Source of the DNA: a virus
Virus record (IMG/VR): IMGVR_UViG_3300042691_030495
Length of the DNA stretch: 64,000 nt
Reading direction: 5' to 3' (one strand)
This document shows, in pieces, positions 1,683-20,675 of the stretch. The notes beneath the pieces are model-generated. The model saw only the letters and a program-made list of their open reading frames with translations. It did no database searches and was not told the origin of the DNA. How positions within the stretch are numbered: the first letter of the stretch is position 1; every line of letters begins with the position of its first letter. Position numbers and translations under genes: made by a program.

Positions 1683-3080
<1,398 letters not shown>

Positions 3081-5174: not shown

Positions 5175-6926
5175 TTGGGAATTTTCAATAAGAACAGCAA
5201 AAACACACGTAGAGAATCTACTAACAGTCGCTTTAGGGCTTCGGTGCCTCGCACTGCGACCCCTGTTGCTCCAGGCATCTCTGTAGATTCTTTCGGTTTG
5301 GTTTATGCAGAGCCCGCGGCCTACAACACCCCTAGAGCTTTAACTGCAGCAGCAGCCCAGATAAAAATTGGTGACAAAACAGAGGCAGAGCAGTTTAAAG
5401 CTCGTAGACAGTCCGCTTCTTCGTCCTGGCAGACAGAAGCTTGGGAGTACTACGACGCGATTGGCGAAATTAAGTACGCTTTTAATCTTGTTGCTGCAGT
5501 TGTATCCCGTATTCGAATCTACGCAGCATCTGTAGACAACCCAGCCGAGGCTCCTGTTCCTGTAAATATCTCAGCGAACATAGATCCTCAGCTAGCAAGA
5601 GCCGCTGAGCGCGCATTGGCAAGACTTAACTCAGCATACGGTGGTCAGGCAGGTCTTTTGAAAGACGCTGCTCTAAATCTTCAGGTTACTGGAGAGTGCT
5701 ACCTAGTTCAGGTTCCAGAACGTGTTGGCACTGGTCTTCCAGAGAGCTGGGACATGAGATCTGTAGATGAACTACAGCTAGACTCCAGAGGAAACTATGT
5801 CATTAGCCCAATTCGCGATGTTTCAGGATCTTCTTCCAACCAAACTTCAAAAAGTGCGATAAAACTTCCTAAGGACGCGTTTATTGGACGCATTTGGAAG
5901 TCTCACCCTCGTTACTCACTAGAGTCAGACTCATCGCTGCGCGGTCTACTCGATCTTTGCGCTGAACTTCTACTTCTTAACCGCACCTTCCGTGCAACTG
6001 CACGTTCACGCTTGAACGCTGGTGCTCTCTACTTGCCAGACGGACTGTCAGTAGCATCTTCTCCGGATCCAGACTACCCATACGATGAAGATGGCGAATA
6101 CAACGAGCAGTATAACGCCGAGGAAGCTGCTGACGACTTCGAAGATCAACTAATCGACGCGATGACCACTCCGATTAAGGACGAAGACTCCGCGAGCGCC
6201 GTTGTCCCACTTATCATTCGTGGACCTGCAGAACTTGGCGACAAGATCAAGCAGTTTAAGTTCGAGCGTTCGTTTGACGCCAGCCTTGTGCAGCGTGCTG
6301 ACCGAGTCCTTGAGAGAATCATGCAGGGTCTAGACGTCCCTAAGGATGTTGTAACAGGTCTTGCAAATGTTAAGTATTCAAACGCTCTACAGATTGACGA
6401 AGCACTCTACAAGGCTCACATCGAACCTCTAATGCTTCTTATTGTTGACGCTTTGACTGTTGTTTACTTGCGTCCATACCTAATTGCAAACGGCTATGAC
6501 GAAGAAGCTGTAGCCAAGATTCAGGTTTGGTATGACCCAAGTCAGGTAGCAACCAGAAATGACAGAGCTACCGACGCAGACAGCGGATTCGACAAGATGG
6601 CAGTCTCCTACAACACATGGAGACGCGCGCACGGATTCTCAGATGCAGACGCACCTAGCCCAGCAGAACTTGCACTACGCCTTGTAATTGAGAAGGGTAT
6701 GATCACCCCTGAGCTAACTCAAAGCATGCTAGAAGCGGTTGCGCCTGAACTTAAAGATCTTATTAACGCAGCAAGTCAAGCCAGCTCTGTAGCTCCTATG
6801 CCACCAGAGATTGAGCAATTGCTAGCTGGACAGCCAGTGGCTCCTGGAGCAGAGGCACCTACCGAAGAGCCTGCAGCAGAAGCCCCGGGTCTTGCAGAAC
6901 CAGTAGCTCCTCAAGAAGGGCAGTAA
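5175..6926 (+). CDS. portal protein
   Basis: Position after terL, size, WQTEAWEYYDAIGEIKYA and RSRLNAGALYLP motifs typical of actinophage portals; GGGAG SD before TTG. Confidence 0.85.
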   Translation: MGIFNKNSKNTRRESTNSRFRASVPRTATPVAPGISVDSFGLVYAEPAAYNTPRALTAAAAQIKIGDKTEAEQFKARRQSASSSWQTEAWEYYDAIGEIKYAFNLVAAVVSRIRIYAASVDNPAEAPVPVNISANIDPQLARAAERALARLNSAYGGQAGLLKDAALNLQVTGECYLVQVPERVGTGLPESWDMRSVDELQLDSRGNYVISPIRDVSGSSSNQTSKSAIKLPKDAFIGRIWKSHPRYSLESDSSLRGLLDLCAELLLLNRTFRATARSRLNAGALYLPDGLSVASSPDPDYPYDEDGEYNEQYNAEEAADDFEDQLIDAMTTPIKDEDSASAVVPLIIRGPAELGDKIKQFKFERSFDASLVQRADRVLERIMQGLDVPKDVVTGLANVKYSNALQIDEALYKAHIEPLMLLIVDALTVVYLRPYLIANGYDEEAVAKIQVWYDPSQVATRNDRATDADSGFDKMAVSYNTWRRAHGFSDADAPSPAELALRLVIEKGMITPELTQSMLEAVAPELKDLINAASQASSVAPMPPEIEQLLAGQPVAPGAEAPTEEPAAEAPGLAEPVAPQEGQ

Positions 6927-6928
6927 TA

Positions 6929-7384
6929 GTGGACCAGCCATCTAGCGTAGATCTTGCAAAGAAACTTGCTCATCTACTGTCTGACGTAGTTTCTCTGTCT
7001 TTTATTTCTCAGGGGCACCACTGGAACATTAAAGGTTTTAACTTTTATCAGTTCCACGCGTTCTTTGCAGAAATATACGAAGACACTTCTTCAGCGATTG
7101 ATCCTCTTGCAGAAAACATTAGAAAGCTAGGATTCAATGCCCCCTATCTTCTAACTGACTTTTCCGAGATGACCTGCATCAACCAAGAACGAATTGACGG
7201 AGACGCCATTGAGTCTATTAATTCTTTAGTTAGTGCAAACAGTATTGTAACTAACTGCTACGCAGATGCTTTTGAGCTTGCAGAAAACTGCAACCAACCA
7301 GGCATTGCAGACTTCCTTGCTGGAAGACATGAGATGCACCAGAAGTGGCAGTGGCAGTTAGAGTCAACTTTAGGGATTAGATAA
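6929..7384 (+). CDS. dps: Dps / ferritin-like DNA-protection protein
   Basis: HHWNIKGFNFYQFHAFFAEIYE...IDPLAENIRKLG and HQKWQWQL ferroxidase-centre motifs. Confidence 0.9.
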   Translation: MDQPSSVDLAKKLAHLLSDVVSLSFISQGHHWNIKGFNFYQFHAFFAEIYEDTSSAIDPLAENIRKLGFNAPYLLTDFSEMTCINQERIDGDAIESINSLVSANSIVTNCYADAFELAENCNQPGIADFLAGRHEMHQKWQWQLESTLGIR

Positions 7385-8076
7385 TGTCTTCGTATTTAGA
7401 GTCTGCTTTTGGTGGAAACTCAAATATCTCGGGATACTCTTTAGTCCCAGAAGAGCAAGAGTTTGCTGACGCAATCCTAAAGGTTGCCAAAAAGTACGGA
7501 AAGTTTAACGACGACAACAGCGGTGTTTGGGTTGGGTACACTCCTGCCTCAGAGAATGAGGAGAACGCTCAGATTGGCGTTAAGTGTGGCAACTGTGTCT
7601 TCTTCATGGGCGGAAATGCCTGCCAGATCCTAGCTGAAGCAGTGGAGGAGAACGGCCTATGCCGTCTTGCTGTATTGCCAGATGGCGCAGTCACTGCTAC
7701 AGCTGGCTCAAAGCCTGCTCCGAAAAAAGATCAAATCAAAGGATCTAAAAAGAACCCTAAAGGTTCGGCCGACGATGGCAAGAGCGTAACTTTCAACGAA
7801 ACCATAATTACGTCCCTCAAGAACAAGGTAGAAAGCCACAACGAAAAGGCAGAAGCTGGCAGAAAAGCAACTCTTCCAACTCTAAAAGCTGTATACCGCA
7901 GGGGTGCTGGAGCTTTCTCTACATCTCACAGGCCTGACCAGAATCGCAACTCTTGGGCTATGGCCAGAGTGAACGCATACCTGCACTTACTAAAAACCGG
8001 ATCTCCTAAAAACTCAAAGTACACAACAGATAATGACCTGCTACCAAAGGGTCACCCAAAGTCAACAAAGAAATAA
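7384..8076 (+). CDS. two-domain head-associated protein: HiPIP-like 4-Cys domain plus basic phage domain
   Basis: KCGNCVFF..C..G.C pattern; C-terminal VYRRGAGAFSTSHRP..WAMARVNAYL..DLLPKGHP. Confidence 0.65.
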   Translation: MSSYLESAFGGNSNISGYSLVPEEQEFADAILKVAKKYGKFNDDNSGVWVGYTPASENEENAQIGVKCGNCVFFMGGNACQILAEAVEENGLCRLAVLPDGAVTATAGSKPAPKKDQIKGSKKNPKGSADDGKSVTFNETIITSLKNKVESHNEKAEAGRKATLPTLKAVYRRGAGAFSTSHRPDQNRNSWAMARVNAYLHLLKTGSPKNSKYTTDNDLLPKGHPKSTKK

Positions 8077-8149: not shown

Positions 8150-11100
8150 GTGAGCCAAGCGTTCGATTCCCTACTCGCTAAGATCGAGAACTACTACTCT
8201 GACGCGGATTACACCGTTCAAGACGCCGAGCACCTGTCTCGCATCGCTATCTCCGAATACGCTTCGACTCAGAATGCTCTAGTAGCTTCGGCTCGTCAAC
8301 TTTCCAATAATTCAGTACAAAAAATTATTGACCTAACAATTAATAAGCACATAACTGCAGACCCAAGCGAGTGGATGCTCTTCGCAGCAAATGCCGTAGA
8401 CAACGTAATTAACTACTCACAGCGCGGTGTACTAGCTTCTGGTCTTTCAGACTTTACAGACTTTTTACCAGTAGGTCACCCGTCAAGAACTAACCGCGGG
8501 GCTATGACCGCCTCTGCACTAAACCAGGCCACCGCGCTTTGGACTGCTGCAGACCCTCGCATTGCTTCTGACGAAGCTAGATACGACACATACAAAGCAT
8601 ACGCAAGCCAGCCAGGATCAGTTGAAGCAGACTACGCAGCGTATAAACTTTCAGCACTAGTTGCAGCAGGTTATGTTCCAGAAGACATTAGTCTTCCGAT
8701 CACTGCAGCGTTCAGAATGAGCTTTGCAATGCGCTCCGCAATGTCTAAGGCACTTGCTGCTGTACGTCGTCGCCACCGCGATGGTAGATTCGCTGAAGAG
8801 TTTGGACGTCTAAAGGGATTCTTTAGCCGTGGAGACGGAAGCATTTTCTCTGAAAACGGAAGAATTGTTGGCGCTGAGCGTGGGACCAACAACTTTGAGG
8901 TAGAGTTCAGCGGATCCGACGAGATTCCAGATGGTATCTACACCATCGATGCAGCTAAGACAGATTCCGTTAAAGCTGTTCTATCTAAGCGCGCACTGAA
9001 AGGCGTTAAAGGAAAGCGCAGTATTGCAGTGCCGACTCAGGCAGAGCGAGACGCTGCTATTCCTCTAGACGAGTTTATAAAAACTAAAAAAGATGCACCA
9101 GAGGGTTGGACTAAGAACGAAGATGGATCTTTTACATCTAAGACAGGTCAGACACTACGTCAGGTAGACACTCGCCCTGAAGGTGACTACATGTTTGAAG
9201 GTGCTGGCGAAAGTGGTGCCGAAGATCCTAACGAACCGTTCTTTGAGTTAACTGACAGAGACGGCGAAATAATCGGTGTTGCTCAGGACTGGGCCGGCGC
9301 AAACAAAATTGCACTTACCTACGATGCTTTTGAAGAAGACAGCAAGCCAGAACCAGAAGAGCCAGGTCTCGACCAAGACGCTCCTGCCTCTGATCAAGAG
9401 GATCCTACAGCCATTGGAAAACCGGAAGACCCTAGAGCAGCTGCAATAGAAGATTTAGTATCCAACCTTGACTCTGCTGAAGCAAGAAGAGAATTTGAGC
9501 GCATGGAGCGGAGAGATGGCTCTTGGCTTGACTCAGAGCAGCCATCAATAGACGCGTATGGACCTGACGATAAGAATCTGAACTGGAATGCTGAGTACGA
9601 CAAAACTACTAAGGACCTTATAGAAAAGATTTTTAGTGACCCAGCAGTTGTCGAAGCTCGTAATGATAGGCCACTAGCTAAAACGCAAGAGGGCGACCCT
9701 GAGGACTGGGAATTAGACAATTGGTACCAAGAAGTCGGCGCTGCAATTTCATGGGCAGCAAAAAAGTACGCAGAAGAAGCTGCACCGGGCCTCGACCAAG
9801 ATGCTCCTCGAAGCTTAAATGAGCCAGAAGACTCCGCTGTTGACATCGGTCCAGACCTAGAGAGAACTGACAGCGGAGATTTAGAGTACTACTCTGACAC
9901 TGCTGGTGCTGACATCTCTAAAGTTGGAGACAAGTGGCAGCTCGTCAAGAGCGGGTTTGAGGATATTGAACAGCACCCACGCGGTGTCTACCAGTATGAA
10001 GACACTAAGATGTTTGACTCCGAGCAAGAAGCCATAGCTGAAGCACAAAAGTGGATTGATTTAGGTAAGTCTTCTGACTTCTACGACTTTATGTATAACG
10101 ACTGGTTTGATGGCCAAGCAGATGGCCTAGACCAGGATGCCAAAAACCCTAACTGGTTTGAAGACGCTATTGACTTTGATGCCATAGACAATCAGGATAG
10201 CTGGAAAGACCTAGGCGGAGGCTCCAGAGAGTACACCTCACCAGACGGAAAACTAAAACTAACTTTTGAACCAGACGGCGACTCGGACGGTGAGGGTGGA
10301 CTTGTAGACGCCTCCGGAATTACTGTTGAGTACGATGGTCAATCTGTTGGCAGCTTTAAGGCAACCGAGCGCGACCTCACGTCTCCAGGAGAAGTTGCAG
10401 ACGCCCTTAGCCGTACTTTAGCTGAAGCTAATTTTAATCCTAACGATTTAATAAAATTTGATGATTTTGGAAATTACGGCTTCGAGCGAGAGAGCGGTCT
10501 TGGCACAGTTTCTATCTCTAAAAAGTACGACCCAAACACTAAGAAACTCCAGTGGGAAGTAACTAAAGAAGCTCGCGACCTTATTGATGAGAACGTTGAG
10601 CACTCTTTCTTTGAGCAAAAAAAGTTTGACTCCTTAGATGACGCAAGAGCTTTCGCTGAAGAGTTTGCTCAGATTCTTAACGATGACGACAAATTCTCCA
10701 AATTCCTAAACGATGACTGGGCAGACAGAGACTACGACTACGGCTTTGACCAAGCAGGCGGATCTACGACAGATACCGTAAAGCAGCTTGCTGACGGATA
10801 CAACATCACTCCTCGTGTAGAAATAGTTTACAATTCGAACACCAAGCAGTATGAGCGTTCAGTAAACTCGAACGAGTTTGAAGCAGACGGTGACTTCTAC
10901 GACTTTGGTTCGGCAGTAGTTAACCTGTCTGAATATGCTCCAGGTAAATGGGTAGCAACTATCTTCTATGGAGATAGGGATGGCAGTGGCCAGGATACCC
11001 TTGAACTTGAGCAAGACTTCAACAGCCCCGAGGAAGCCTTCGAGTGGGTAGCTAACGGATTTGGTAAAGGGTTTGACAACTCTCAGGTTGCGGAAGGTGT

Positions 11101-13591
11101 ATTAGAACGTCAAGACCTAGATGAGATGGCTAGCTTCCTGCAGAACCCTAAGTACAAGGATGCTCACGACGAAGTCCGTGATGTTTACGATGAGCTCAAC
11201 TCAAAGTACTTTGAGCAGGCTCCTGGATCAGGAGAGATCGAGGCCACAGAAGGCGGAAATGCTTCCTACAAAGGACCAGATGGATCTACTGGATCTATAA
11301 AGTCCGACGGCTCCGGCACCTGGGAAGGCTCCTTCACAGACGCTGAGGGAGAAGTCTCCACCAGAAAGTTTAAAGCAGAAGATAAAGCTGCTGCTTGGCT
11401 ACAGAAAAAAGTAGACGACTCTAAATTAGCTGCGTTTAAGAAAGAAAATGGCGGGCTATCTCCAAAGCAGCTCGAGCCAGCTACCTCTAAGCAGTATGAC
11501 CTACTGCAGGAACTTTTTGACGAGCGCGACGAGATTGATTCTCTAACTTCTGACGCCATCAAAGATGCTCTAGACAACCGCAACCTTTCTAAGTCTCAGA
11601 TTTCTGCCCTATTTGGCGATCTTCAGAAGAAGCCGTTCAAGCCAGGAGTAGACTCCACTAAGCCAACCGACAGAATGTTGAACTCTCTACAGGGCTACCT
11701 GACTACAAAGCAGATTTCTCCAGAAGAGCTAGACGACATCCTCAGTCAGCTTGAGGCAGGACTAGACCGCCCTGGCATCGAGGCCTTGACAAACAAGCTA
11801 CGTCGTAAGCCAGATAACGCTGACGCAGCTGGCCTTGACCAAGATGTTAACTCCAAGATTGACCCCACTATGCCTGACTCAGCAGTAGGTGCTGATGATG
11901 ACATTAAGCAAGAAATTGAAGACGCTATTGAGCGCGCCCGTAGCGATCACGAGCGCCTATTTGACGAAATAAATGCAAAAGAAGAAGACGGAGAGATAAC
12001 TCCGGAAGAGGCAGAGTCCCAGCGGGATGAGCTAGAGCAGGGCTTGGAGCAGTTCCAGTGGGCTGCCCGTAGACGCTACTACGATTATCTTTGGGAGACC
12101 GGAGAGTTCAACGAAGCGTACAACGATGTTCTAGAAGCATGGAACTCGCAGAGTTTCCGCGATGAGGAAAGAGATAGAGCTTCACTATTTGACGAAGAAA
12201 ACGAAGAGGATGAGGGATTAGACCAAGACGCTCCAACCAAGCCTCTCACCGAAAAGCAGCTAGAGCCAGCTTCTGACGCTCAGTACAACTACCTACAGAG
12301 TCTTGTTGAATCCAAGATGAATGTAGACGCTGACACTGCCGCCGCTGTTGCTGAAGCAGCTACTAACAAGAACCTAAGCAAGGCTCAGGCCGGTGCTCTT
12401 ATTGGCAAGCTCCGTGTTCTAGATGACAAAGAAAATCTTGGTCAGTACGGCAAGCCTTCTCAAAAGATGATTGACTCGGTTAATCGCGACGTCTACGCTA
12501 AGGGACTTTCCGAAGAAGACAGAAACGAGATTTTAAAAGATCTTGACAGCTTGTCTAAGGCTGATGTCTCAAGCATCATAAGCCAGCTCAAGGAGATGCC
12601 AAACGTTCCTGGAGGTCTCGACAACTACATCAAGTCTTTAGTTGAAGATGGAGATCTTGAGGCACTTAAGAGACTAAGAGCTGACGTTAGAAATGAAGAC
12701 TCCTTCTCTGTATTAGACAAAGCTATAGCTGATGTCGAGGCCGGAAACACTCCTGGACTAGATCAGGCTGCTCCTTCAGCTCCGGCTTCAGGACCTCTCT
12801 ATGACAGGGACGAAGCTTCGAACCTACTAGACGAGATAAAAGCGGCTGAAGACGCTGGTGAAATTGGTAGCACCTTCTTGCCAACAGACTCTCTTAAGGA
12901 TTTTGACCCTGAAGACATCGGAGATGCGGCTAGCATGTATGTCGAGTTAGACGATGCTATCGGCAATGTTGGAGAGGGCAGCTTAAGACAGAAGCTAGAG
13001 CAGTTTGCTGAAAAACTACTCAGCAGCATCCAGTCTAGGCTTGGCCCAGTTGAGTCCGCTAAGCGCGACAGCGATGATATCGGAAGCGAATTAGAGTTTG
13101 ATCGCACTTCTAGAAGAGCTAACGATCTTGTTGAGTTCTACTACCCCTCAGAAGGTATCGCTTTTGACCAGCTAAATGAGCCAGGAAACAGCAATGTTGG
13201 AGACAACAGAGGCGGCGGCTGGGAAGCACGAGTTGCTCTAGACGAAGATGAAGAAGAGGAAACTTGGGTTGCAACCTTAACCTCTCCCGAAAACGACAGC
13301 CAAAACGAGCAAAGAAGTTTTGACAACCAAGAAGACGCGGCTCGCTGGGCAGCAGAAAACTTAGAGTCTAATAATAACGAGCTTTTGCCATCAGAATTAG
13401 ATGAGTTTTTGAGTGGACAAATCTTCTCGACTTATGCTGACAACCCTCAGGCGCTAATCTCTAAGCTGAACGACATAGCTGAGTGGTTCCGAGGAACCCG
13501 TAGAGGCGACGGAGAAGACGTAGCTAGGGGAATCCTAGAATACGTAGATCGACTAGAAAACCTTCTTGGAGACTCTGCCCCAAAAGCGTAG
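8150..13591 (+). CDS. giant acidic polyvalent protein / putative polyprotein with repeated G[LF]DQ linkers
   Basis: 1813 aa, AGAAAGG SD, 7 G[LF]DQ plus one YFEQ motif separating small domains; in head module. Confidence 0.85.
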   Translation: MSQAFDSLLAKIENYYSDADYTVQDAEHLSRIAISEYASTQNALVASARQLSNNSVQKIIDLTINKHITADPSEWMLFAANAVDNVINYSQRGVLASGLSDFTDFLPVGHPSRTNRGAMTASALNQATALWTAADPRIASDEARYDTYKAYASQPGSVEADYAAYKLSALVAAGYVPEDISLPITAAFRMSFAMRSAMSKALAAVRRRHRDGRFAEEFGRLKGFFSRGDGSIFSENGRIVGAERGTNNFEVEFSGSDEIPDGIYTIDAAKTDSVKAVLSKRALKGVKGKRSIAVPTQAERDAAIPLDEFIKTKKDAPEGWTKNEDGSFTSKTGQTLRQVDTRPEGDYMFEGAGESGAEDPNEPFFELTDRDGEIIGVAQDWAGANKIALTYDAFEEDSKPEPEEPGLDQDAPASDQEDPTAIGKPEDPRAAAIEDLVSNLDSAEARREFERMERRDGSWLDSEQPSIDAYGPDDKNLNWNAEYDKTTKDLIEKIFSDPAVVEARNDRPLAKTQEGDPEDWELDNWYQEVGAAISWAAKKYAEEAAPGLDQDAPRSLNEPEDSAVDIGPDLERTDSGDLEYYSDTAGADISKVGDKWQLVKSGFEDIEQHPRGVYQYEDTKMFDSEQEAIAEAQKWIDLGKSSDFYDFMYNDWFDGQADGLDQDAKNPNWFEDAIDFDAIDNQDSWKDLGGGSREYTSPDGKLKLTFEPDGDSDGEGGLVDASGITVEYDGQSVGSFKATERDLTSPGEVADALSRTLAEANFNPNDLIKFDDFGNYGFERESGLGTVSISKKYDPNTKKLQWEVTKEARDLIDENVEHSFFEQKKFDSLDDARAFAEEFAQILNDDDKFSKFLNDDWADRDYDYGFDQAGGSTTDTVKQLADGYNITPRVEIVYNSNTKQYERSVNSNEFEADGDFYDFGSAVVNLSEYAPGKWVATIFYGDRDGSGQDTLELEQDFNSPEEAFEWVANGFGKGFDNSQVAEGVLERQDLDEMASFLQNPKYKDAHDEVRDVYDELNSKYFEQAPGSGEIEATEGGNASYKGPDGSTGSIKSDGSGTWEGSFTDAEGEVSTRKFKAEDKAAAWLQKKVDDSKLAAFKKENGGLSPKQLEPATSKQYDLLQELFDERDEIDSLTSDAIKDALDNRNLSKSQISALFGDLQKKPFKPGVDSTKPTDRMLNSLQGYLTTKQISPEELDDILSQLEAGLDRPGIEALTNKLRRKPDNADAAGLDQDVNSKIDPTMPDSAVGADDDIKQEIEDAIERARSDHERLFDEINAKEEDGEITPEEAESQRDELEQGLEQFQWAARRRYYDYLWETGEFNEAYNDVLEAWNSQSFRDEERDRASLFDEENEEDEGLDQDAPTKPLTEKQLEPASDAQYNYLQSLVESKMNVDADTAAAVAEAATNKNLSKAQAGALIGKLRVLDDKENLGQYGKPSQKMIDSVNRDVYAKGLSEEDRNEILKDLDSLSKADVSSIISQLKEMPNVPGGLDNYIKSLVEDGDLEALKRLRADVRNEDSFSVLDKAIADVEAGNTPGLDQAAPSAPASGPLYDRDEASNLLDEIKAAEDAGEIGSTFLPTDSLKDFDPEDIGDAASMYVELDDAIGNVGEGSLRQKLEQFAEKLLSSIQSRLGPVESAKRDSDDIGSELEFDRTSRRANDLVEFYYPSEGIAFDQLNEPGNSNVGDNRGGGWEARVALDEDEEEETWVATLTSPENDSQNEQRSFDNQEDAARWAAENLESNNNELLPSELDEFLSGQIFSTYADNPQALISKLNDIAEWFRGTRRGDGEDVARGILEYVDRLENLLGDSAPKA

Positions 13592-13608
13592 CCCCCAGCG
13601 AGGGGGCT
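13579..13608 (+). other. programmed -1 ribosomal frameshift signal
   Basis: C CCA AAA heptamer in correct phase (13579-13585), hairpin AGCCCCC-AGCGA-GGGGGCT (13590-13608), -1 frame open to 15897 and encodes GLDQDA. Confidence 0.8.
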
Positions 13609-15897
13609 GACAGTGGTGTTGGTCTAGATCAAGATGCCGCGGCTATTGACAGAATTAACAAGGTTCTAGCTAAGTATCGCCCTGAGCCAGCGCCAAGCAA
13701 CTCTGTACGTCCTGCGGTAGCAGTGGGCGAGCCAGGATCTAAAGCTAACCCACTCAAGCTAGATGACGAGCAGCTACAAGAAAAAACTACACAGGTCACT
13801 AAAACCAACCTAGCTGCTTCAATTTCAGTTCTTTCTGAACTATATGACGCTTTTGATAATGTTAAAAAATTCGCATTTTGGCGAAGAAAATGGGACCGCA
13901 ACGCTACTAGGCCTATACCAGTAAACCCTGGTACTGGAGCCTACTACAAAGGTCCCAACGTGTTTGCTTTAGAAGAGGCAGCGGCTAAGAACGGATTTAG
14001 CGACCCTCGTTGGATGACCGCTCAGCAAATACTAAATATGGGTGGGTCAGTTCCTAGCGGTACCAAAGGTACACAAATCCTAGTCCCTCAGGTTTTGGTT
14101 ACTGATGTCAAAGGCAAAGTTGTAGAGCTGTATGAGTTTATGAAGGTTACTGTTTTTAATGGCGACCAGGTCGATGGAATCCCGTCATATAACCAAGATG
14201 ACAACAAATCATATACTCCAGAAGAAGCTGCGAATATTCTTTTAGACCGCCTACGCGAAGCCTCTGAGATCAGAGACACCGGACAACCAAATGTATTTGG
14301 GATTCAGCTTGATGAAGATCAAAATCCTCGATGGATGCCAAACTACGGTTCTTTTCAGCCTGAAAAAATACGACTACCGCTTAGAGCAAATTTTGAGGAT
14401 GACGAAGAGTGGTTTAACACTCTAGCTCACGAACTTATCCACTCTACGGGTAAACTTAACCGACTTGATAGAAAAGAACTAGATAAAGCTTTTGAAGGTG
14501 ATGACTCAAGTAGGGCGGAGGAAGAGCTTACTGCAGAGCTAGGTGCCATGATTTTAAGTCGAATGTTTGGAATAGGTTCTGATTCTAAAAACTCTACAGC
14601 ATACTTACTTAACCACTTAAAAAATGTTAAAGAGCAAGATCGCAACAACGCTGTAACCGCTGCAGTGTCTAGAGCACAGGTTGCGGTTGAGTACTTACTG
14701 GGGAATGATGTTTTGCCTCAGTGGGACCCACTAAAGACTAAGGTCTTCCCAACCATACAGTCTGAAAGATTAGATGTCACTACTCCAAAAGCTTCAAGCT
14801 TAAACCCAGACCCAACTCCTGACTTTGTTGATGCCCAGTTAGCTGGCTTTGATCAGGCAGTAGGAGAGGAGTCAGTCGACCAGGGTAAGTCAATATCAAA
14901 CAGCAAAGACGCCAAAGAAAAAGTTCTGTCTAGCCTGTTAGAAAAAATTAAAGAAGGTAAGACTCCTTGGCGTAAACCGTTTAAAGAAGGATCAAACTTT
15001 GCAGGAGCAGACTTACCTAGAAACCCAGCATCAAAGCATATCTACAATGGCATAAACGCGATGGTTCTAAGACTAAACCAGCAGCTTTCTGGATATGACG
15101 ACCCTCGTTGGATGACATACAAGCAAGCTCAGGATCTCGGTGGAAACGTTAGAAAAGGCGAGAAGGGTGTTCCAATTCTTATACCTTTCAAGCAGGTTCG
15201 CAAAGAGAAAGATTCTGCAACTGGACAAGAAGTAGTTACCGGTAGCTTTATAAGATTTGGAACCGGAACAGTCTTTAACGTCTCTCAGATTGATGGCATT
15301 ACTCTTCCTACTGCTAAAGAAGAGGCAGGAGAACCAAAGACTCCTCTAGAGGCTCAAGAATTTATTTTAGAGCGCTACAAAAAGTCTATGGAAGCTAAAG
15401 GTCTAAAGACACCAGAAGTTGAGTACACCTACATTGGAGAGTACGGGAACCACGCTTCTTCTCCAAACTGGAGTCCTTCTCTAGATAGAATTACACTTCC
15501 AACCAAGGAGCAGTTCAACAGTCCAGAAGACATGTTTGACACTATTGCCCACGAGCTAGCCCACAGCACGGGACACAAGGATCGCCTAGATAGGACAGAA
15601 CTTACCAGCAAGTATGGATCTGATAGCGCCGCTCGCGGCCAAGAGGAGCTCATAGCTGAGATAGCAGCTGCTATTTTGGCGAGCATGTTTGGAGTCAATA
15701 GCGACTTTGATAACACTGCAGCTTACGTAAAGAGCTGGCTTGCAGCCCTAAAGGATGACCCTAACATGGTTACCCTATCCTCCTCAGAAGCCCAGAAGGT
15801 AGTAGACTACATACTAGGCATGGATCTAGGAGACTGGAGTCCAATAGAAGGCTACAAATCTACAGTTACTAAAAAAGATGGAGACTCAGATGAGTGA
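13585..15897 (+). CDS. ardC: tandem ArdC (ssDNA-binding plus zincin MPTase) modules, probably C-terminal part of frameshift fusion
   Basis: Two copies of W-R-[RK]..P.NP....Y.G.N..DPRWMT..Q...GG.V..G.KG plus HELIH/HELAH and EEL.AE; GTG at 13723 lacks an SD. Confidence 0.85.
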   Translation, partial: SVAPSEGADSGVGLDQDAAAIDRINKVLAKYRPEPAPSNSVRPAVAVGEPGSKANPLKLDDEQLQEKTTQVTKTNLAASISVLSELYDAFDNVKKFAFWRRKWDRNATRPIPVNPGTGAYYKGPNVFALEEAAAKNGFSDPRWMTAQQILNMGGSVPSGTKGTQILVPQVLVTDVKGKVVELYEFMKVTVFNGDQVDGIPSYNQDDNKSYTPEEAANILLDRLREASEIRDTGQPNVFGIQLDEDQNPRWMPNYGSFQPEKIRLPLRANFEDDEEWFNTLAHELIHSTGKLNRLDRKELDKAFEGDDSSRAEEELTAELGAMILSRMFGIGSDSKNSTAYLLNHLKNVKEQDRNNAVTAAVSRAQVAVEYLLGNDVLPQWDPLKTKVFPTIQSERLDVTTPKASSLNPDPTPDFVDAQLAGFDQAVGEESVDQGKSISNSKDAKEKVLSSLLEKIKEGKTPWRKPFKEGSNFAGADLPRNPASKHIYNGINAMVLRLNQQLSGYDDPRWMTYKQAQDLGGNVRKGEKGVPILIPFKQVRKEKDSATGQEVVTGSFIRFGTGTVFNVSQIDGITLPTAKEEAGEPKTPLEAQEFILERYKKSMEAKGLKTPEVEYTYIGEYGNHASSPNWSPSLDRITLPTKEQFNSPEDMFDTIAHELAHSTGHKDRLDRTELTSKYGSDSAARGQEELIAEIAAAILASMFGVNSDFDNTAAYVKSWLAALKDDPNMVTLSSSEAQKVVDYILGMDLGDWSPIEGYKSTVTKKDGDSDE

Positions 15898-16057
15898 AAA
15901 GAAACCAGACATCCTAGGTGGTTACACTGAAAATGATCCAGAATACTGGGCACTTTTAGCAAAGATCATAGGGAACCCTGTGCCAGAGTACGAAGACGAC
16001 AGCGAGTTCGTTGACGAAAATGGCGTTGTCATAAAAGACATAAAGCCCGCTGAATAA
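15890..16057 (+). CDS. small acidic protein (55 aa, not in ORF track)
   Basis: GGAG SD, overlaps ardC stop; MSEKKPDILGGYTENDPEYWALLAKIIGNPVPEYEDDSEFVDENGVVIKDIKPAE. Confidence 0.65.
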   Translation: MSEKKPDILGGYTENDPEYWALLAKIIGNPVPEYEDDSEFVDENGVVIKDIKPAE

Positions 16058-16115: not shown

Positions 16116-19100
16116 ATGAATAACCTAATTGGCCGCTCTGGCAGCTTGTCTCTCTATGCTAATAACGAGCATGGAGTGATTATTGACTCCTCCATCGGAG
16201 CAGTTGTTGCTAGTGGTGCTGCTTCTGACGTTTACTTCCTTGAGAGCTGGGATCTTCCGACTGATCCGGGGGCTAAAGCTGAAATTCTATTAGCTGAAAA
16301 AGCCTTGAGCGCTCTTGAAGAAAAAGCTATTGTTGCTGCCGCCGACAGAATGTACACAATTCCGAAAACTGTACAGGCTGAAGCTAAGAAAGCTTTAGAG
16401 TGGCGCAAAGAAGAGAACCGTGGGGGAACTCCTGTAGGTCTTAACACTGCTCGCACTCTTGCAAAAGGCGGTCAGATTGGCATTCGTAAGATTCGCCACA
16501 TTGCAAAATACTTCCCTCGTCATGAGGTAGACAAAAAAGGCAAGGGCTGGAAGCCTGGCCAAGAAAACTATCCATCTAACGGACGCATCGCGTGGGCACT
16601 CTGGGGTGGAGATGCAGCATGGCGCTGGGCACGCACAATTGTAGAGCGTGAAAACAAAAAGCCTGTAACTTCAGGGGGCTACTACCCAGGGCAGACAAAC
16701 TTCGAAACAAGCTCGGAAGATATAAATCCATTTAAATACGCTAACGATCTTGACATGCACTACGGACCTGAATTTTTAGTCAGAGTCTGCTTAGACGGTT
16801 CCGGAATGGATCGCCTATACATGGTTGACATCGACGGATCGATTTACGTGTGGGACGACTCTAACTGGGACAACATGGGACATGTCGATGGTGATGTGTG
16901 GACATACGATCGTATGCTAGATGATGTTTACGATACTCAGGAAAAAACTCACGTAATTATCGACCCTCAGTCGGCTCTGCAAATAGCAGCACGCATGGCT
17001 GTAGATCCTGGTTGCAAAGTAACTATGTATGAGCTTGACCAGGATGAAGCAGCTCTTACTATGTCAGGGCTTCAGGATGAAGACTGGGACTTTATAGACC
17101 AAGTAATTGTTGCAGCCGGTACAGCTGACCCAACGACATCCCAGGCAGATAAAGATGGTGACGGAGTACTAGACTCTGATTTCTTATCTGAAAAAGCAGA
17201 AAACCAACCTAGAGATGCACGCGGTCAATTTGCTGCTGCAGGTTCTAGGGTTATTGTTGGTGGCGACGCCCAGCGCGGGTCAGGTGTTATTACAAAAGTA
17301 GACAGCAAGACCGGAATGGTTTCCGTTCGACTTGACAGCGGAAAAGAAATTGAAGTAGACGCTAAGTACACCGAAGGCGAAAAAGGCTTTGTTGGCCCTA
17401 GAGCCGTACCTAAGACCGTAGCCCCATTAGACCTTTCTGGAATTATTGGAGAATCTAGAACTCCAATTAACATGCCTAATGCTCACCTTCCTGGAACGCT
17501 ACCTCCGATGTCCAGTAGAGACATTGACAACATGCTTTACAACTGGCCTAAGTACGTATCTGACATGCGCAGTTCCTACAAGCCAGCAGACGCAGCAGAC
17601 AAAGAACGAGTAAAAAAGACCTGGGGACTTGAAAAGTTTGCAGGAGAAAACTCTATTGTTGCCGCAGCGGAAACAGAAAAGACGCTAACTCCAGCTACCT
17701 CAGATGTTCCACCTAAATACCTAGCAATAGTTACAGAGGAAAATCCTCAGGACGTAGTAGATCTAGTTGCACTGGTTCCAGCCAGTGCTACCTCTACCGA
17801 GCCTATTGCCTACACTAGAGATGGTGACAAGTGGGTCCGCGACGATCAGACCATGGCTGACCTCCGCTCTTCAACAAAGCCGCCTGTTATTGAGCTAGAC
17901 AAAGAGTCTCTAAATGATGTGCTTACTCAAATGTCTGAAACCGAAAAAGCCCCAACAAAGGGCATAGAAGAGTTTTCTACATTAAAAAATATTAATGCTA
18001 TCTTTGATGCTTTTGTTGCAGCTGGCGGTTTAGACCGTAACCGAGGAAACGCGGAAGAGCTTCGCCGTTACTGGACTTCAGGTAAGGGTGCAGCCAAGAT
18101 CCGTTGGGGAACCCCGGGGGACTGGACTAGATGTGTTCGTCAGCTTTCTAAGTACATGGGACCTAGAGCTAAGGGTTACTGCCAGCTCAGACATAAGGAT
18201 GCCACGGGAGTATATACAGGCAGTAGGCTAAACCCCGGAAGAGAAAACTCTATGGAATCCCAGATGTTTTCGTCCTTAGAAGATTTTAACCAGAAAGTTA
18301 TAGCCCACTCTGAGCTTGTAGCTAGGGCCGCGCACGCTAAAGAAAGATTTGCTGTAACTGCAGGAGCAACTCCAATGATGGACTCTGGCGCTAGGTTTAC
18401 TATCCCTCTTTTGATACCAGAGGAGCTAGAGTCTGGCGATGGAAGAAAGTTCAAGAAGGACTCAATAACACTTAGAGAACTTCCGCTACCTTTGCTATGG
18501 CAAATTAAGACTGGAGAAGGTCACGCCGGATCTGTAGTTGTTGGTCGGATTGACTACATAGAGAGAACCGAGAACGGATTAGGCAACGCCTATGGAGTTT
18601 TTGACACTGGAGCTTACGGAAAAGAAGCTGAACGTCTAGTTAGGAATGGATTCCTACGTGGAGTCTCCGCCGACCTAGATCAGTTTGAGGCTAAAGAAGA
18701 TAAGAAGCCTAAGCCTGAAGGTTCTGCGGAACTAGAAGACGAGGGAGAGATCGGCAAAGACAAACTCACGGTCAATAGGGCACGCGTAATGGCTGCTACA
18801 ATTGTAGCAAAGCCTGCATTCCAGGAATGCACTATTTCTATTGACGAATCAGGCTACCAGGAGGAAGAAAACATGCCCCTAACCGACGGTCTCTATGAGG
18901 AGACAATTGACTCTACCGTCGTGCCGCTAGTTGCCTCAGGATTTTTAGATTCAGAGATTCCTGTAGTTCCACCACAGGACTGGTTCGAAAACCCTAATCT
19001 AACTAAGCCAACCCCTCTAACTGTAGACCCAAGCGGTCGCATTTATGGTCACATTGCAGCATGGCACGTAAACCACATTGGTATGCCTCGCTCGACTCGT

Positions 19101-20675
19101 CCACCTCGCTCTAAGAGCAAGTACTCCTACTTCCACACTGGTGTTGTTCGCACAGACGCTGGTAAGGATATTCCAGTCGGACAGCTAACTCTTGCAGGCG
19201 GCCACGCAGATTTAACTGCTAGCGCATCTCAGGCTGCTAAGCACTACGACGACACCGCTTCAGCAATTGCTGACGTTTGCGCCGGAGAAGACGAGTACGG
19301 AATCTACGTATGCGGTTCACTACGCCCAGGCGCAACCGAAATGCAGATTCGTGCACTACGCGCTTCTGCTCCTTCAGGCGACTGGAGACCAATCAACGGC
19401 TCACTTGAGCTAGTTGCAGTTTGCCAAGTTAACGTCCCAGGATTCCCTATTGCTCGTGCACTTGTTGCATCTGGCAAGGTTATGGCTTTGGTTGCTGCTG
19501 GCGCTAGCTTCTTTGCAATTATGAAGAGCGAGCACGTAGAGCACTTTGTAACTAGAGCAGAGCGTCTATCTCAGCTAGCTGCTTCAACTCCAGACTTAAA
19601 GTCTAGAGTTAAGAAAGCCAAAAAAGAAGCCAAGACTTATGCAATAACCGCTGCGGCTAAAAAGGTTGAGACCATGCGTGAGCGGGCACTTATTGCTGCT
19701 GCTGCAGCCGAGCTTTCAAAGATTAGCGAATTGCAGCGTAAACATCTTGCAGTATCTGGCAAAGCACTTCCAGATGGCTCATACCCGATTCGCAACGTAG
19801 AAGATCTAAAGAATGCAATACAGGCTTACGGAAGATCAAATCCAGAAGATCGCAAAGCGGTTAGAGCTCACATTCGCAAGCGCGCAGAAGCTTTAGGTAA
19901 AACTGACCTAGTTCCAGAAAACTGGAAGGCTGCTGCCATTGTAGATGTGCAGAGCTCCGCAGAAAAGATGCGCTCAGTTATTGCAGCTGTCAACGCAAAG
20001 CTTACTGAGTTTGCTGAAGTCGACGAGATCACTGACGCTGACCTAGAAAAGCTTAAGGACGCTAAAACAGAAGCTGACAAGCAGACCGAAGAAGAAATTC
20101 AGCAGGCAGAAGACGTCCGCACTGGAAAGACTACTGCAGAAGATAAGTTTGATGAGGATGGCCGCACAAAATTTACGCCAAAGACTCAGCCTCGCGATGC
20201 TAAAGGTAAGTACCGCAAGGTCTTGGCTAGATTAAAGCAGAACCTAGGAGTAGCCGGTCTACAGAAGGCACTACTTAAGGTTCAAGAAGCCGAAAACCTA
20301 GAGTTTTCCGGTAACTACACCAAGTCGGCTGCTGCCAGCTCAGAGCTTTTGGACATGATTGACAGATTGGACACTAAGGCGCTAAACCCAGAGGCCTTGG
20401 AGAACGTTCGACTAACTGCCGCAGAGCTAGGCAAGACTATTGCCAACCTGCCCCTGCCTTTTGGCAAGGAATCATCAAAATTAAGATTTAGCGATTTACC
20501 GTCTGGACTCAAGGATCTCATCGAAAAGATGATTACTCGGGTCGAGGCCAAAATCGGTAAAGAAGACGCGGCCGTCGCCACTAAAGGCCTGCAGTCCTAT
20601 ATGTCTGGAGCAGATGTCTACTCCCAGGGTGAAATTCAGTCTGAGATGAGCAAGCTACTCCGACTCCTTACCTAA
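16116..20675 (+). CDS. multidomain capsid maturation protease
   Basis: HK97/assemblin-like domain (SGDGRKF..LPLPLLWQ..GH..VVGRID..GVSAD..IVAKPAF), second related domain (GHIAAW..SGDWR..VNVPGFP), IAWALWGGD domain, KIRWGTPGD..RC domain, DGSYPI (DUF6582-like) domain. Confidence 0.8.
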   Translation: MNNLIGRSGSLSLYANNEHGVIIDSSIGAVVASGAASDVYFLESWDLPTDPGAKAEILLAEKALSALEEKAIVAAADRMYTIPKTVQAEAKKALEWRKEENRGGTPVGLNTARTLAKGGQIGIRKIRHIAKYFPRHEVDKKGKGWKPGQENYPSNGRIAWALWGGDAAWRWARTIVERENKKPVTSGGYYPGQTNFETSSEDINPFKYANDLDMHYGPEFLVRVCLDGSGMDRLYMVDIDGSIYVWDDSNWDNMGHVDGDVWTYDRMLDDVYDTQEKTHVIIDPQSALQIAARMAVDPGCKVTMYELDQDEAALTMSGLQDEDWDFIDQVIVAAGTADPTTSQADKDGDGVLDSDFLSEKAENQPRDARGQFAAAGSRVIVGGDAQRGSGVITKVDSKTGMVSVRLDSGKEIEVDAKYTEGEKGFVGPRAVPKTVAPLDLSGIIGESRTPINMPNAHLPGTLPPMSSRDIDNMLYNWPKYVSDMRSSYKPADAADKERVKKTWGLEKFAGENSIVAAAETEKTLTPATSDVPPKYLAIVTEENPQDVVDLVALVPASATSTEPIAYTRDGDKWVRDDQTMADLRSSTKPPVIELDKESLNDVLTQMSETEKAPTKGIEEFSTLKNINAIFDAFVAAGGLDRNRGNAEELRRYWTSGKGAAKIRWGTPGDWTRCVRQLSKYMGPRAKGYCQLRHKDATGVYTGSRLNPGRENSMESQMFSSLEDFNQKVIAHSELVARAAHAKERFAVTAGATPMMDSGARFTIPLLIPEELESGDGRKFKKDSITLRELPLPLLWQIKTGEGHAGSVVVGRIDYIERTENGLGNAYGVFDTGAYGKEAERLVRNGFLRGVSADLDQFEAKEDKKPKPEGSAELEDEGEIGKDKLTVNRARVMAATIVAKPAFQECTISIDESGYQEEENMPLTDGLYEETIDSTVVPLVASGFLDSEIPVVPPQDWFENPNLTKPTPLTVDPSGRIYGHIAAWHVNHIGMPRSTRPPRSKSKYSYFHTGVVRTDAGKDIPVGQLTLAGGHADLTASASQAAKHYDDTASAIADVCAGEDEYGIYVCGSLRPGATEMQIRALRASAPSGDWRPINGSLELVAVCQVNVPGFPIARALVASGKVMALVAAGASFFAIMKSEHVEHFVTRAERLSQLAASTPDLKSRVKKAKKEAKTYAITAAAKKVETMRERALIAAAAAELSKISELQRKHLAVSGKALPDGSYPIRNVEDLKNAIQAYGRSNPEDRKAVRAHIRKRAEALGKTDLVPENWKAAAIVDVQSSAEKMRSVIAAVNAKLTEFAEVDEITDADLEKLKDAKTEADKQTEEEIQQAEDVRTGKTTAEDKFDEDGRTKFTPKTQPRDAKGKYRKVLARLKQNLGVAGLQKALLKVQEAENLEFSGNYTKSAAASSELLDMIDRLDTKALNPEALENVRLTAAELGKTIANLPLPFGKESSKLRFSDLPSGLKDLIEKMITRVEAKIGKEDAAVATKGLQSYMSGADVYSQGEIQSEMSKLLRLLT

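What the first reader, a model, noticed from the sequence alone, without database searches (positions are those of the whole stretch)
8150..15897. Putative capsid-packaged polyprotein cut at repeated G-[LF]-D-Q linkers
Seen: the motif occurs at 9365, 9788, 10124, 10742 (GFDQ), 11207 (YFEQ variant), 11831, 12215, 12755, 13621 and 14845 (GFDQ). It is followed by D or A and mostly sits in Pro/Ala/acidic linkers between apparent domains; one copy lies exactly between the two ArdC modules. Codons differ synonymously (GGT CTC GAC CAA, GGC CTA GAC CAG, GGA TTA GAC CAA...), so conservation is at protein level. Cutting after Q gives pieces of about 409, 141, 112, 206, 155, 208, 128, 180, 289, 408 and 346 aa. 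Known: head-module polyvalent proteins and packaged anti-restriction proteins (P1 DarA/DarB, T4 internal proteins) exist. Inference: one gene delivers ~11 small, mostly very acidic effectors (DNA-mimic or anti-defence candidates) into the capsid and releases them by site-specific proteolysis, like an RNA-virus polyprotein.
Basis: partly seen in the sequence, partly recalled or inferred. Interest (0 to 1): 0.93.

Follow-up and report, generated by a model that had tools for sequence, protein, structure and literature searches.

The report
Motif-punctuated phage head cargo polyprotein
An uncultured phage of actinobacteria strings about eleven acidic protein modules together with one short conserved tag (Gly-Leu/Phe-Asp-Gln), and a programmed ribosomal frameshift adds two ArdC anti-restriction/zinc-protease units to the string; the tag is most likely a protease cutting signal, but no cut has been measured.

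Summary
G-[LF]-D-Q occurs 9 times, plus one YFEQ variant, at exactly the stated coordinates. It occurs nowhere else on the + strand of the window (0.1 copies expected).

One correction: this is not a single ORF. ORF1 stops at 13589-13591. ORF2, which carries the two ArdC units, is in the -1 frame and has no conserved start codon. It is joined to ORF1 by a -1 frameshift signal (C_CCA_AAA plus a GC hairpin) that is conserved in 9 independent contigs.

- All 8 sites that were modelled, and site 1 again in a second model, lie in disordered coil between folded modules.
- In 50 homologues the modules are gained, lost and duplicated exactly at the tag.
- The tag is lineage-specific: G[LF]DQ, GLGQ, DLDQ or GFxQ, with up to 17 copies per protein. 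Q is invariant.
- The tag is absent from the capsid, portal and protease proteins. It is also absent from related giant proteins that lack ArdC.

Best reading: a head-module cargo polyprotein made in two forms, as in Gag/Gag-Pol, and cut at the tag. The cutter is most likely its own ArdC-type zincin; the prohead protease is the main rival. Cleavage, packaging and module function are all inferred, not shown.

This scan has already noted analogous polyproteins in other actinophage genomes, with a different tag (LSSG).

The parts
8150..13591 (+). ORF1, 1813 aa: constant N-terminal module, 7 variable acidic modules and a constant C-terminal module. Ends in TAG.
   Evidence: 50 homologues
8150..9376 (+). 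Constant N-terminal module (409 aa, folded, no known fold). Candidate capsid-targeting or anchoring domain. Shared with giant proteins of relatives that lack the motif.
9365..9376 (+). junction tag 1, GLDQ
9788..9799 (+). junction tag 2, GLDQ
10124..10135 (+). junction tag 3, GLDQ (G and Q invariant in 24 homologues)
10742..10753 (+). junction tag 4, GFDQ
11207..11218 (+). Degenerate tag YFEQ, at the position where P0005 has GLDQ
11831..11842 (+). junction tag 5, GLDQ
12215..12226 (+). junction tag 6, GLDQ
12755..12766 (+). junction tag 7, GLDQ
12767..13585 (+). Constant C-terminal module of ORF1, which runs into the frameshift site
13579..13585 (+). Slippery heptamer C_CCA_AAA (X_XXY_YYZ in the ORF1 frame)
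13589..13609 (+). Hairpin: 8 bp with a GCCCCC/GGGGGC core, -15.8 kcal/mol. Contains the ORF1 stop codon.
13585..15897 (+). ORF2 in the -1 frame (770 codons after the slip). It has no conserved start codon or Shine-Dalgarno sequence (SD).
13621..13632 (+). Junction tag 8, GLDQ, 12 codons after the slip site and upstream of any start codon
13633..14856 (+). ArdC unit 1 (ArdcN plus MPTase-PolyVal zincin; HELIH at 14428-14442)
14845..14856 (+). Junction tag 9, GFDQ, between the two ArdC units
14857..15894 (+). ArdC unit 2 (aligns with full-length R388 ArdC 6i89, E 1e-39; HELAH at 15550-15564)
16116..20675 (+). Context: 1519-aa head-maturation-protease protein (rival cutter). It has no linker-type tag.
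20797..22791 (+). Context: major capsid protein. It has no tag.
5175..6926 (+). Context: portal protein

Best explanation
This is a cassette-built cargo polyprotein of an actinobacterial tailed phage, encoded in the head-morphogenesis module. Translation gives two products with the same N-terminus. The first is the 1813-aa ORF1 product: a constant N-terminal module, seven swappable acidic modules and a constant C-terminal module. The second is a 2582-aa fusion made when ribosomes slip back one base at C_CCA_AAA in front of a GC hairpin; it adds two complete ArdC units, each a ssDNA-binding ArdC-N domain plus an HExxH zincin. Every module boundary carries the tag P-G-[LF]-D-Q-[DA]-A-P in a disordered linker. 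The tag is a site-specific processing signal that releases the modules as separate small acidic proteins and two ArdC-sized proteins. On this reading the frameshift sets the ratio of substrate to protease, as in retroviral Gag/Gag-Pol. The shared N-terminal module is inferred to take both forms into the prohead, so that the pieces travel with the DNA into the next host. Shown here: the motif, its linker position, its conservation and lineage-specific variation, the cassette shuffling, the frameshift signal and the ArdC identity. Inferred: cleavage, the identity of the cutter, the scissile bond (Q|D/A or G|L/F), packaging, and the function of the acidic modules. I put cleavage by some protease at about 0.7 and the full statement with the zincin as reader at about 0.42.
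For: Motif statistics and exclusivity. All 8 modelled sites fall in coil segments with pLDDT<50, which cover 28% of the model (chance about 4e-5); site 1 again lies in the disordered tail of a well-folded N-terminal module (pLDDT 81.6). Conservation: G and Q are invariant columns in 24 homologues. The site logo is informative only from P5 to P3', and Q is 100% by construction, because sites were collected with a pattern ending in Q. The tag is lineage-specific: G[LF]DQ, GLGQ, DLDQ/DLNQ and GFxQ, 16-17 copies against 1.05 expected in P0060. Modules are inserted, deleted and duplicated exactly at the tag. Frameshift: a heptamer plus hairpin is conserved in W, L002-L006, L008, L009 and L061 while the proteins diverge to about 38% identity in the N-terminal region. 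The -1 frame is closed upstream. The tag recurs 10-12 codons after the slip. Substitutions favour the third codon position of the -1 frame (51/26/100). ORF2 has no conserved start or SD. Link to the zincin: every tag-bearing lineage checked has ArdC/MPTase downstream via the frameshift or fused in frame (P0059, P0060, P0062). Tags flank each ArdC unit. About 13 distinct related giant proteins without ArdC have no recurrent motif. A separate ArdC-bearing lineage has its own recurrent tag, E-I-D-K-M-A, which also flanks its ArdC. The tag is absent from the capsid, portal and protease proteins in three lineages, whereas characterised prohead proteases use one motif on both shell and cargo proteins (SPN3US AXE, PMC10052503). 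Iyer et al. 2017 predicted MPTase processing of polyvalent proteins (PMC5512222).
Against: No proteomic or biochemical evidence of any cut exists, and all relatives are uncultured. ArdC of R388 and pSa is not known to process itself, and its relatives of the SprT/Spartan type are not sequence-specific. One ArdC-bearing giant protein (L033) shows no recurrent motif. The association between tag and ArdC rests on only 2-3 phylogenetically independent lineages. Precedent in T4, phiKZ and SPN3US favours the prohead protease as the cutter of internal head proteins. Packaging is inferred from gene position alone, and the N-terminal module matches no known capsid-targeting fold. Module A has almost no stand-alone homologues: 1 short protein among 28 clusters. 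There is thus no independent sign that the modules work as free proteins.
Confidence: 0.42

Rival explanations
1. Same polyprotein and same frameshift, but the tag is read by the prohead (S78-like) serine protease encoded in the next gene (16116-20675). It would cut after Gln inside the prohead, as T4 gp21 cuts after L-x-E and phiKZ/SPN3US proteases after A-x-E. The ArdC zincins would then be cargo, not the processing enzyme.
For: All experimentally known processing of internal or ejection head proteins is done by the prohead protease (PMC10052503; established knowledge for T4). The tag has a hydrophobic P3 and a Glu-like P1, resembling the T4 L-x-E motif. The protease gene is adjacent and syntenic in every lineage.
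Against: The tag is absent from the capsid protein, the portal and the protease/scaffold protein in three lineages. The only LDQ conserved in the protease protein lies in the GVSADLDQ strand that aligns with the S78 catalytic-serine region, not in a linker. Relatives such as DSL-LC01 keep the homologous protease and a 70%-identical capsid protein but have no tag in their giant protein. A different conserved motif, ALVAS-GGH, marks the capsid protein in all lineages.
Confidence: 0.22
2. The tag is not cut. It is a short linear docking motif, repeated to give multivalent binding of an intact beads-on-a-string protein to the capsid interior, to the scaffold or to a host target.
For: Short conserved motifs in disordered linkers are typical of docking peptides. 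Lineage-specific variation fits co-evolution with any partner, not only a protease. N4 virion RNA polymerase and plasmid ArdC/TraC1 are delivered uncut (PMC5512222).
Against: The tag stands at every module boundary, including both sides of each ArdC unit, and never inside a module; a GLEQ inside a helix is not conserved as a site. Tag spacing follows module size, not a regular binding register. Information spans P5 to P3' with an invariant Q, as in protease sites. No candidate partner was identified.
Confidence: 0.15
3. The tag is cut by a host protease, as staphylococcal phage 80alpha capsid and scaffold proteins are cut by host Prp. Lineage differences would then track different hosts.
For: The tag varies by lineage. 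There is precedent for host-protease processing of phage head proteins (own knowledge).
Against: The tag always co-occurs with a phage-encoded zincin. No host genome is available to test this.
Confidence: 0.06
4. The motif is a passive linker or a recombination joint that eases cassette exchange, with no reader.
For: Cassette exchange does occur exactly at the tags.
Against: The codons differ synonymously, and DNA similarity around the sites is only 22-38 nt at 63-86% identity, so selection acts on the peptide. A passive linker would not keep G and Q invariant across proteins that have diverged to about 38% identity in the N-terminal region.
Confidence: 0.05

Closest known systems
Polyvalent proteins of phages and conjugative elements (Iyer, Burroughs, Anand, de Souza, Aravind 2017, PMC5512222)
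   Same: A giant multi-module protein in a phage head module, carrying ArdC-N and MPTase-PolyVal zincin domains. Those authors predicted processing by the zincin, and delivery with the DNA.
   Different: No cleavage site was defined for that class. Here a discrete, lineage-tunable junction tag marks every boundary. Most modules are small acidic domains of no known family rather than recognisable enzymes. The zincin units are appended by a -1 frameshift.
Internal/ejection head proteins processed by prohead proteases: T4 IPI-III and Alt (gp21, L-x-E); phiKZ and SPN3US E proteins (gp175/gp245, A-x-E; PMC10052503)
   Same: Proteins encoded in the head module that carry a short motif with a Glu/Gln-type P1; cargo is released inside the capsid.
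   Different: In those systems the same motif also cuts the capsid, portal and scaffold proteins, and mostly removes N-terminal propeptides. Here the tag is confined to one polyprotein, separates about 11 modules, and is absent from the capsid, portal and protease proteins.
Retroviral Gag / Gag-Pol
   Same: A -1 frameshift at an X_XXY_YYZ heptamer plus a downstream structure gives a minor C-terminally extended form. That form carries the protease and shares the N-terminal particle-targeting part. Both forms carry specific cleavage sites between domains.
   Different: This is an analogy only. The protease here is a zincin rather than an aspartic protease, the particle is a dsDNA tailed phage, and neither cleavage nor packaging has been shown.
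Bacterial and phage -1 frameshift sites (dnaX A_AAA_AAG; lambda gpG/GT tail assembly chaperone)
   Same: A heptamer with a lysine codon in the A site, a downstream hairpin, and two products in a fixed ratio.
   Different: Located in a head cargo gene rather than the tail chaperone gene. The extension is 770 aa and carries two anti-restriction units.
ArdC of plasmid R388 (PDB 6i89/6sna; PMC7213743)
   Same: Unit 2 aligns over the whole of ArdC (E 1e-39) with HExxHxTGH intact. If cut at the flanking tags, each unit is ArdC-sized.
   Different: Here there are tandem copies inside a phage polyprotein. Neither anti-restriction activity nor a protease substrate has been tested.
LSSG-type junction tags in other uncultured actinophage polyproteins
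   Same: Swappable modules joined by one short lineage-specific peptide. ArdC or a zinc protease lies nearby, and in one case (e1-5764480) a -1 frameshift leads into an ArdC ORF.
   Different: The tag differs ([LF]-S-S-G against G-[LF]-x-Q). There the tag also marks the tape measure and protease proteins; here it is confined to one gene pair. I did not re-examine those loci.

Membership tests
Polyvalent proteins (Iyer et al. 2017) | Several distinct domains in one polypeptide of a phage or conjugative element | tested here: met
   11 modules separated by disordered linkers; 23 module clusters across 50 homologues
Polyvalent proteins (Iyer et al. 2017) | Hallmark ArdC-N and/or MPTase-PolyVal zincin domain | tested here: met
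   PF08401 2.1e-47 and PF18818 8.5e-49, two copies each; HExxH intact in both
Polyvalent proteins (Iyer et al. 2017) | Phage context with a portal/terminase packaging module | tested here: met
   Order is TerL, portal, ferritin-like, DUF5824, polyprotein, protease protein, capsid protein
Polyvalent proteins (Iyer et al. 2017) | Packaged in the capsid and delivered with the DNA | not testable with these tools
   Needs virion proteomics of a cultured relative
Programmed -1 ribosomal frameshift site | X_XXY_YYZ heptamer phased with the upstream ORF | tested here: met
   C_CCA_AAA at 13579-13585; A_AAA_AAA in L008 and L061
Programmed -1 ribosomal frameshift site | Stable downstream RNA structure a few nucleotides after the heptamer | tested here: met
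   8-bp hairpin, -15.8 kcal/mol, z -2.6, with 3-5 nt spacing. The stem is kept while the loop varies in 9 contigs.
Programmed -1 ribosomal frameshift site | The -1 frame is coding downstream and has no independent start | tested here: met
   Codon-position substitutions 51/26/100. The first in-frame start lies at codon 42-81, is not conserved and has no SD. The -1 frame is closed just upstream.
Programmed -1 ribosomal frameshift site | Frameshift product observed | not testable with these tools
   Needs a reporter assay or proteomics
Prohead-protease-processed internal head proteins (T4 IPs; phiKZ/SPN3US E proteins) | The cleavage motif is shared with the capsid, portal or scaffold substrates of the same protease | tested here: not met
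   No G[LF]DQ, DLDQ or GLGQ in the capsid, portal or linker regions of the protease protein in W, L008 and L009
Prohead-protease-processed internal head proteins (T4 IPs; phiKZ/SPN3US E proteins) | Cleavage shown by neo-termini in virions | not testable with these tools
   No cultured member and no proteome available
Self-processing viral polyprotein | Recurrent conserved junction motif at domain boundaries | tested here: met
Self-processing viral polyprotein | Protease encoded within the same polyprotein | tested here: met
   Two HExxH zincin domains in the frameshift product. Their activity on the tag is untested.
Self-processing viral polyprotein | Cleavage at the motif | not testable with these tools
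   Needs biochemistry or mass spectrometry
ArdC anti-restriction proteins | ArdC-N ssDNA-binding domain followed by an HExxH metalloprotease domain | tested here: met
   Unit 2 aligns with residues 8-284 of 6i89, E 1.4e-39; phrog_7245 3.6e-121
ArdC anti-restriction proteins | Protection against type I restriction | not testable with these tools
   Needs a functional assay

The most novel reading that the evidence does not exclude
A tailed dsDNA phage uses retrovirus-like logic. A -1 frameshift sets the dose of a zincin protease that is co-packaged through a shared N-terminal module. The zincin then cuts a cassette-shuffled cargo polyprotein at a lineage-tunable G-[LF]-x-Q code, releasing a dozen small acidic effectors and ArdC for delivery into the next host. 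The same junction-code principle, with different tags, runs through a whole group of actinobacterial phages.
Probability: 0.33. Interest if true: 0.9.

Novelty: new variant of a known kind. Interest (0 to 1): 0.78.

Why it matters
Processing of polyvalent phage proteins by their own zincin domains was predicted in 2017, but no cleavage site was defined there and I found none described since. This locus offers a defined 7-residue candidate site, present 6-17 times per protein across about 70 homologues, with natural variants (G[LF]DQ, GLGQ, DLDQ, GFxQ). A simple reporter cleavage assay could therefore tell which protease reads the tag. If the zincin reads it, ArdC-type metalloproteases would gain their first defined substrate. 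Phage cargo delivery would also gain a Gag/Gag-Pol-like dosing mechanism. The cassette map shows evolution by module exchange at the tags, which would be a compact way for a phage to vary an injected effector set. The modules themselves belong to no known family and are candidates for new counter-defence proteins.

Tried and rejected
- Complex prediction, ArdC unit 2 plus Zn plus a 44-aa linker peptide: no verdict. This is neither evidence for nor against binding.
- Foldseek of the 1165-aa multi-module model against PDB: only spurious low-TM hits; the model is too long and too flexible.
- Foldseek of the N-terminal module against PDB and BFVD: no match at E<=0.001, so no support for a MuF/gp7-like or any other known targeting fold.
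- Pfam on each module at E<=1: only sub-threshold DUF3072 (module 7) and Sigma70 region 1.1 (module 5). Neither is used as evidence.
- ESM Atlas look-ups of modules 3 and 7: nothing usable.
- Near-length homologue searches of modules 3 and 7: only a fragment of the same protein.
- Exhaustive HMMER search with module 7: 28 clusters, nearly all inside giant proteins, so stand-alone versions are essentially absent.
- 'ELDQDE' and 'ADLDQFE' in the protease protein as possible sites: rejected. The first is not conserved, and the second lies in the catalytic-serine strand.
- GLEQ at 12041: it lies inside a predicted helix and is not a junction.
- Sequencing error as the cause of the frame change: rejected, because the same frame structure and signal occur in 9 independent assemblies.
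- Transcriptional slippage: unlikely, because the A run is only four long in the window's lineage.
- Long DNA repeats as the source of the motif: rejected.
- PDB sequence search of the protease protein: no hit.

Full report
**Setting.** The window is part of an uncultured tailed phage genome; no host genome is held for it.

The region is a head-morphogenesis module. In order it holds:
- large terminase, 3104-4513
- portal, 5175-6926
- a ferritin/Dps-like gene, 6929-7384
- DUF5824, 7384-8076
- the finding, 8150-15897
- a 1519-aa protein with head-maturation-protease homology, 16116-20675
- the major capsid protein, 20797-22791

The nearest GenBank phage is the metagenome-assembled Actinomycetia phage DSL-LC01, whose capsid protein is 70% identical. 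More distant relatives include large Microbacterium, Arthrobacter and Gordonia phages and many Mycobacterium phage records.

**The observation.** A six-frame scan finds G[LF]DQ nine times on the + strand. The tenth listed site, YFEQ at 11207, sits where a 93%-identical homologue has GLDQ, so it is a decayed copy. Shuffling the protein gives 0.1 copies on average. The codons differ between copies. DNA similarity around the sites is only 22-38 nt at 63-86% identity, so the peptide is what is conserved. The piece sizes and their acidity (pI 4.05-5.24) are as stated.

**Correction: two ORFs and a programmed frameshift.** ORF1 ends with TAG at 13589-13591. The last two motif copies and both ArdC units lie in the -1 frame. 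The junction reads GCC CCA AAA GCG TAG:
- C_CCA_AAA is a correctly phased X_XXY_YYZ heptamer.
- It is followed by an 8-bp GC-rich hairpin of -15.8 kcal/mol.
- The heptamer (A_AAA_AAA in two lineages), the spacer and the stem are kept in nine independent contigs, while the loop varies and the proteins diverge to about 38% identity in the N-terminal region.
- The -1 frame is closed a few codons upstream.
- The linker tag recurs 10-12 codons after the slip site.
- Substitutions in that stretch favour the third codon position of the -1 frame (51/26/100).
- ORF2 has no conserved start codon or Shine-Dalgarno sequence.

Two products are therefore expected: 1813 aa, and a 2582-aa fusion.

**Is the tag at domain boundaries?** An AlphaFold2 model of residues 396-1560 (24-sequence alignment, mean pLDDT 62) puts all eight tags in that stretch in coil segments with pLDDT<50, between better-predicted domains. 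Such segments cover 28% of the model, so the chance of all eight falling there is about 4e-5. A second model of the N-terminal 409 residues is confident (pLDDT 81.6) and ends in a disordered tail that carries tag 1. A GLEQ at 12041 lies inside a helix and is not a junction.

**Homologues.**
- Six IMG/VR loci at 69-82% identity and 50 database proteins keep the tag. In each protein the tag is the commonest 4-mer.
- G and Q are invariant alignment columns. Information is confined to P5-P3': P, G, L/F, D, Q, D/A/K, A, P/G.
- The tag changes with lineage:
  - G[LF]DQ in relatives at 64% identity or more
  - GLGQ at about 50%
  - DLDQ/DLNQ/DLGQ at about 38%
  - GFxQ in still more distant giant proteins of 3200-4200 aa, with 16-17 copies against 1.05 expected in P0060 and lineage-specific residues after Q
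- I cut all 50 homologues at the tag and clustered the 395 pieces. The result is a constant N-terminal module, a constant C-terminal module, and between them variable numbers and orders of about 20 cassette types, inserted, lost or duplicated exactly at the tags.

**Who reads the tag?** Two phage proteases are at hand.

The evidence for the ArdC-type zincin (MPTase-PolyVal, HExxH intact in both units) is:
- It is present in every tag-bearing lineage examined, either through the frameshift or fused in frame.
- Tags flank each ArdC unit, so cutting there would give proteins the size of plasmid ArdC.
- About 13 distinct related giant proteins that share the N-terminal module but lack ArdC, DSL-LC01 among them, have no recurrent motif.
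- A separate ArdC-bearing lineage has a different recurrent tag, E-I-D-K-M-A, which also flanks its ArdC.

For the prohead protease (weak Peptidase_S78 signal, strong PHROG hit):
- Precedent favours it.
- Against it, characterised prohead proteases use one motif on both shell and cargo proteins (AXE in SPN3US; PMC10052503). Here the tag is absent from the capsid, portal and protease proteins in three lineages.
- The capsid protein instead carries an invariant ALVAS-GGH.

I therefore favour the zincin. The association rests on few independent lineages, though, and one ArdC-bearing protein (L033) shows no tag. If a zincin is the cutter, the invariant Gly followed by Leu/Phe suggests G|L/F as the scissile bond, because zincins commonly prefer a hydrophobic P1' residue (established knowledge). 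If the serine protease is the cutter, Q|D/A is more likely, by analogy with T4 L-x-E.

**Mechanism proposed.** Both translation products share the N-terminal module, which is inferred to target them to the prohead. The minor frameshift product brings in the zincin. Cutting at the tags frees small acidic proteins and ArdC, which leave with the DNA. This mirrors retroviral Gag/Gag-Pol.
- Shown: the anatomy, the conservation, the cassette exchange and the frameshift signal.
- Inferred: cleavage, the cutter, packaging and function.
- The 'DNA-mimic' idea has no support beyond the acidity of the pieces. The modules have no family, and module A occurs almost only inside such giant proteins.

**Relation to what is known.** The protein meets the tested criteria for a polyvalent protein in the sense of Iyer et al. 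2017 (PMC5512222). Those authors predicted zincin processing but defined no site. New here are the explicit, lineage-tunable junction code, the cassette architecture, and the conserved -1 frameshift that appends the zincin/ArdC units. I found no paper describing this. Within this scan, other agents have described analogous polyproteins in other actinophage genomes with an LSSG-type tag, and in one case a frameshift into ArdC. Those are unchecked AI notes and I did not re-test them. Other first readers noted the frameshift in this genome; I had already found it independently.

**Verdict.** I class it as a new variant of a known kind, interest 0.78.

Noticed in passing
window 6929-7384: A ferritin/Dps-like gene (PF00210, 5e-16) sits inside the head module between the portal and the polyprotein, and is syntenic in all lineages examined (L008, L009, L061). 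Ferritin-like proteins are classic cargo of HK97-fold encapsulins, so it could be packaged in the capsid. Relatives also carry a katG-like peroxidase and a heme oxygenase just upstream of the terminase.
   Followed up: partly
window 15890-16057: A 55-aa acidic ORF whose ATG overlaps the end of the ArdC ORF (GATGAGTGA), which suggests translational coupling. ORFs of 48-57 aa are called at the same place in L008, L009 and L061.
   Followed up: partly
window 16116-20675 and 20797-22791: A possible second motif, [LV]-A-S-G. VASG occurs three times in the protease protein. ALVAS-GGH is invariant in the capsid protein of all lineages, including DSL-LC01. NALVASAR is nearly invariant near the N-terminus of the polyprotein. 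Window-wide enrichment is weak (7 against 3.5 expected). It resembles the LSSG tag noted in other actinophages and may be the prohead protease's own site.
   Followed up: partly
window 20797-21550: The major capsid protein has an N-terminal extension: a conserved stretch of about 90 aa followed by a variable, very acidic low-complexity stretch of about 130-200 aa, before the conserved HK97-like body.
   Followed up: no
L036 and L038 (IMG/VR loci), giant ORFs of 3527 and 3389 aa: A different recurrent junction-like motif, E-I-D-[KR]-M-[AS], occurs 5-6 times in linker-like context. The first copy follows the shared N-terminal module, and copies flank an in-frame ArdC. L026 and L027 have G-x-P-E-F-N-Y three times.
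   Followed up: partly
P0060, P0062, P0068 (3220-4167 aa proteins): 16-17 copies of G-F-x-Q per protein, with lineage-specific residues after Q (for example GFNQ-GER and GFAQ-xAG). P0059, P0060 and P0062 have the zincin HExxHxT fused in frame near the C-terminus, with no frameshift.
   Followed up: partly
L002 12061-12200: The closest IMG/VR relative has an in-frame TGA inside ORF1, after a duplicated module start (GLDQAAKSVSDRDRQL...), and lacks G-L at tag 1. This looks like a recombination scar or an assembly artefact at a cassette junction.
   Followed up: partly
L004 17943-22890: The protease-protein gene is split into two overlapping ORFs, with a duplicated AGGxDxNRGNAE...GYCQLRHKDA segment.
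   Followed up: no
window 1683-3080: A collagen-repeat tail-fibre-like protein is encoded upstream of the terminase, away from the tail genes.
   Followed up: no
window 9800-13585 (modules 2, 3, 4, 5 and 8): Several modules end in a similar helix, F-[DN]-[ST]-x-[ED]-[ED]-A-x-x-[WF], after a small beta-sheet with a YTSPDG-like turn. This suggests one repeated domain family (cluster B in the cassette map) of unknown function.
   Followed up: partly
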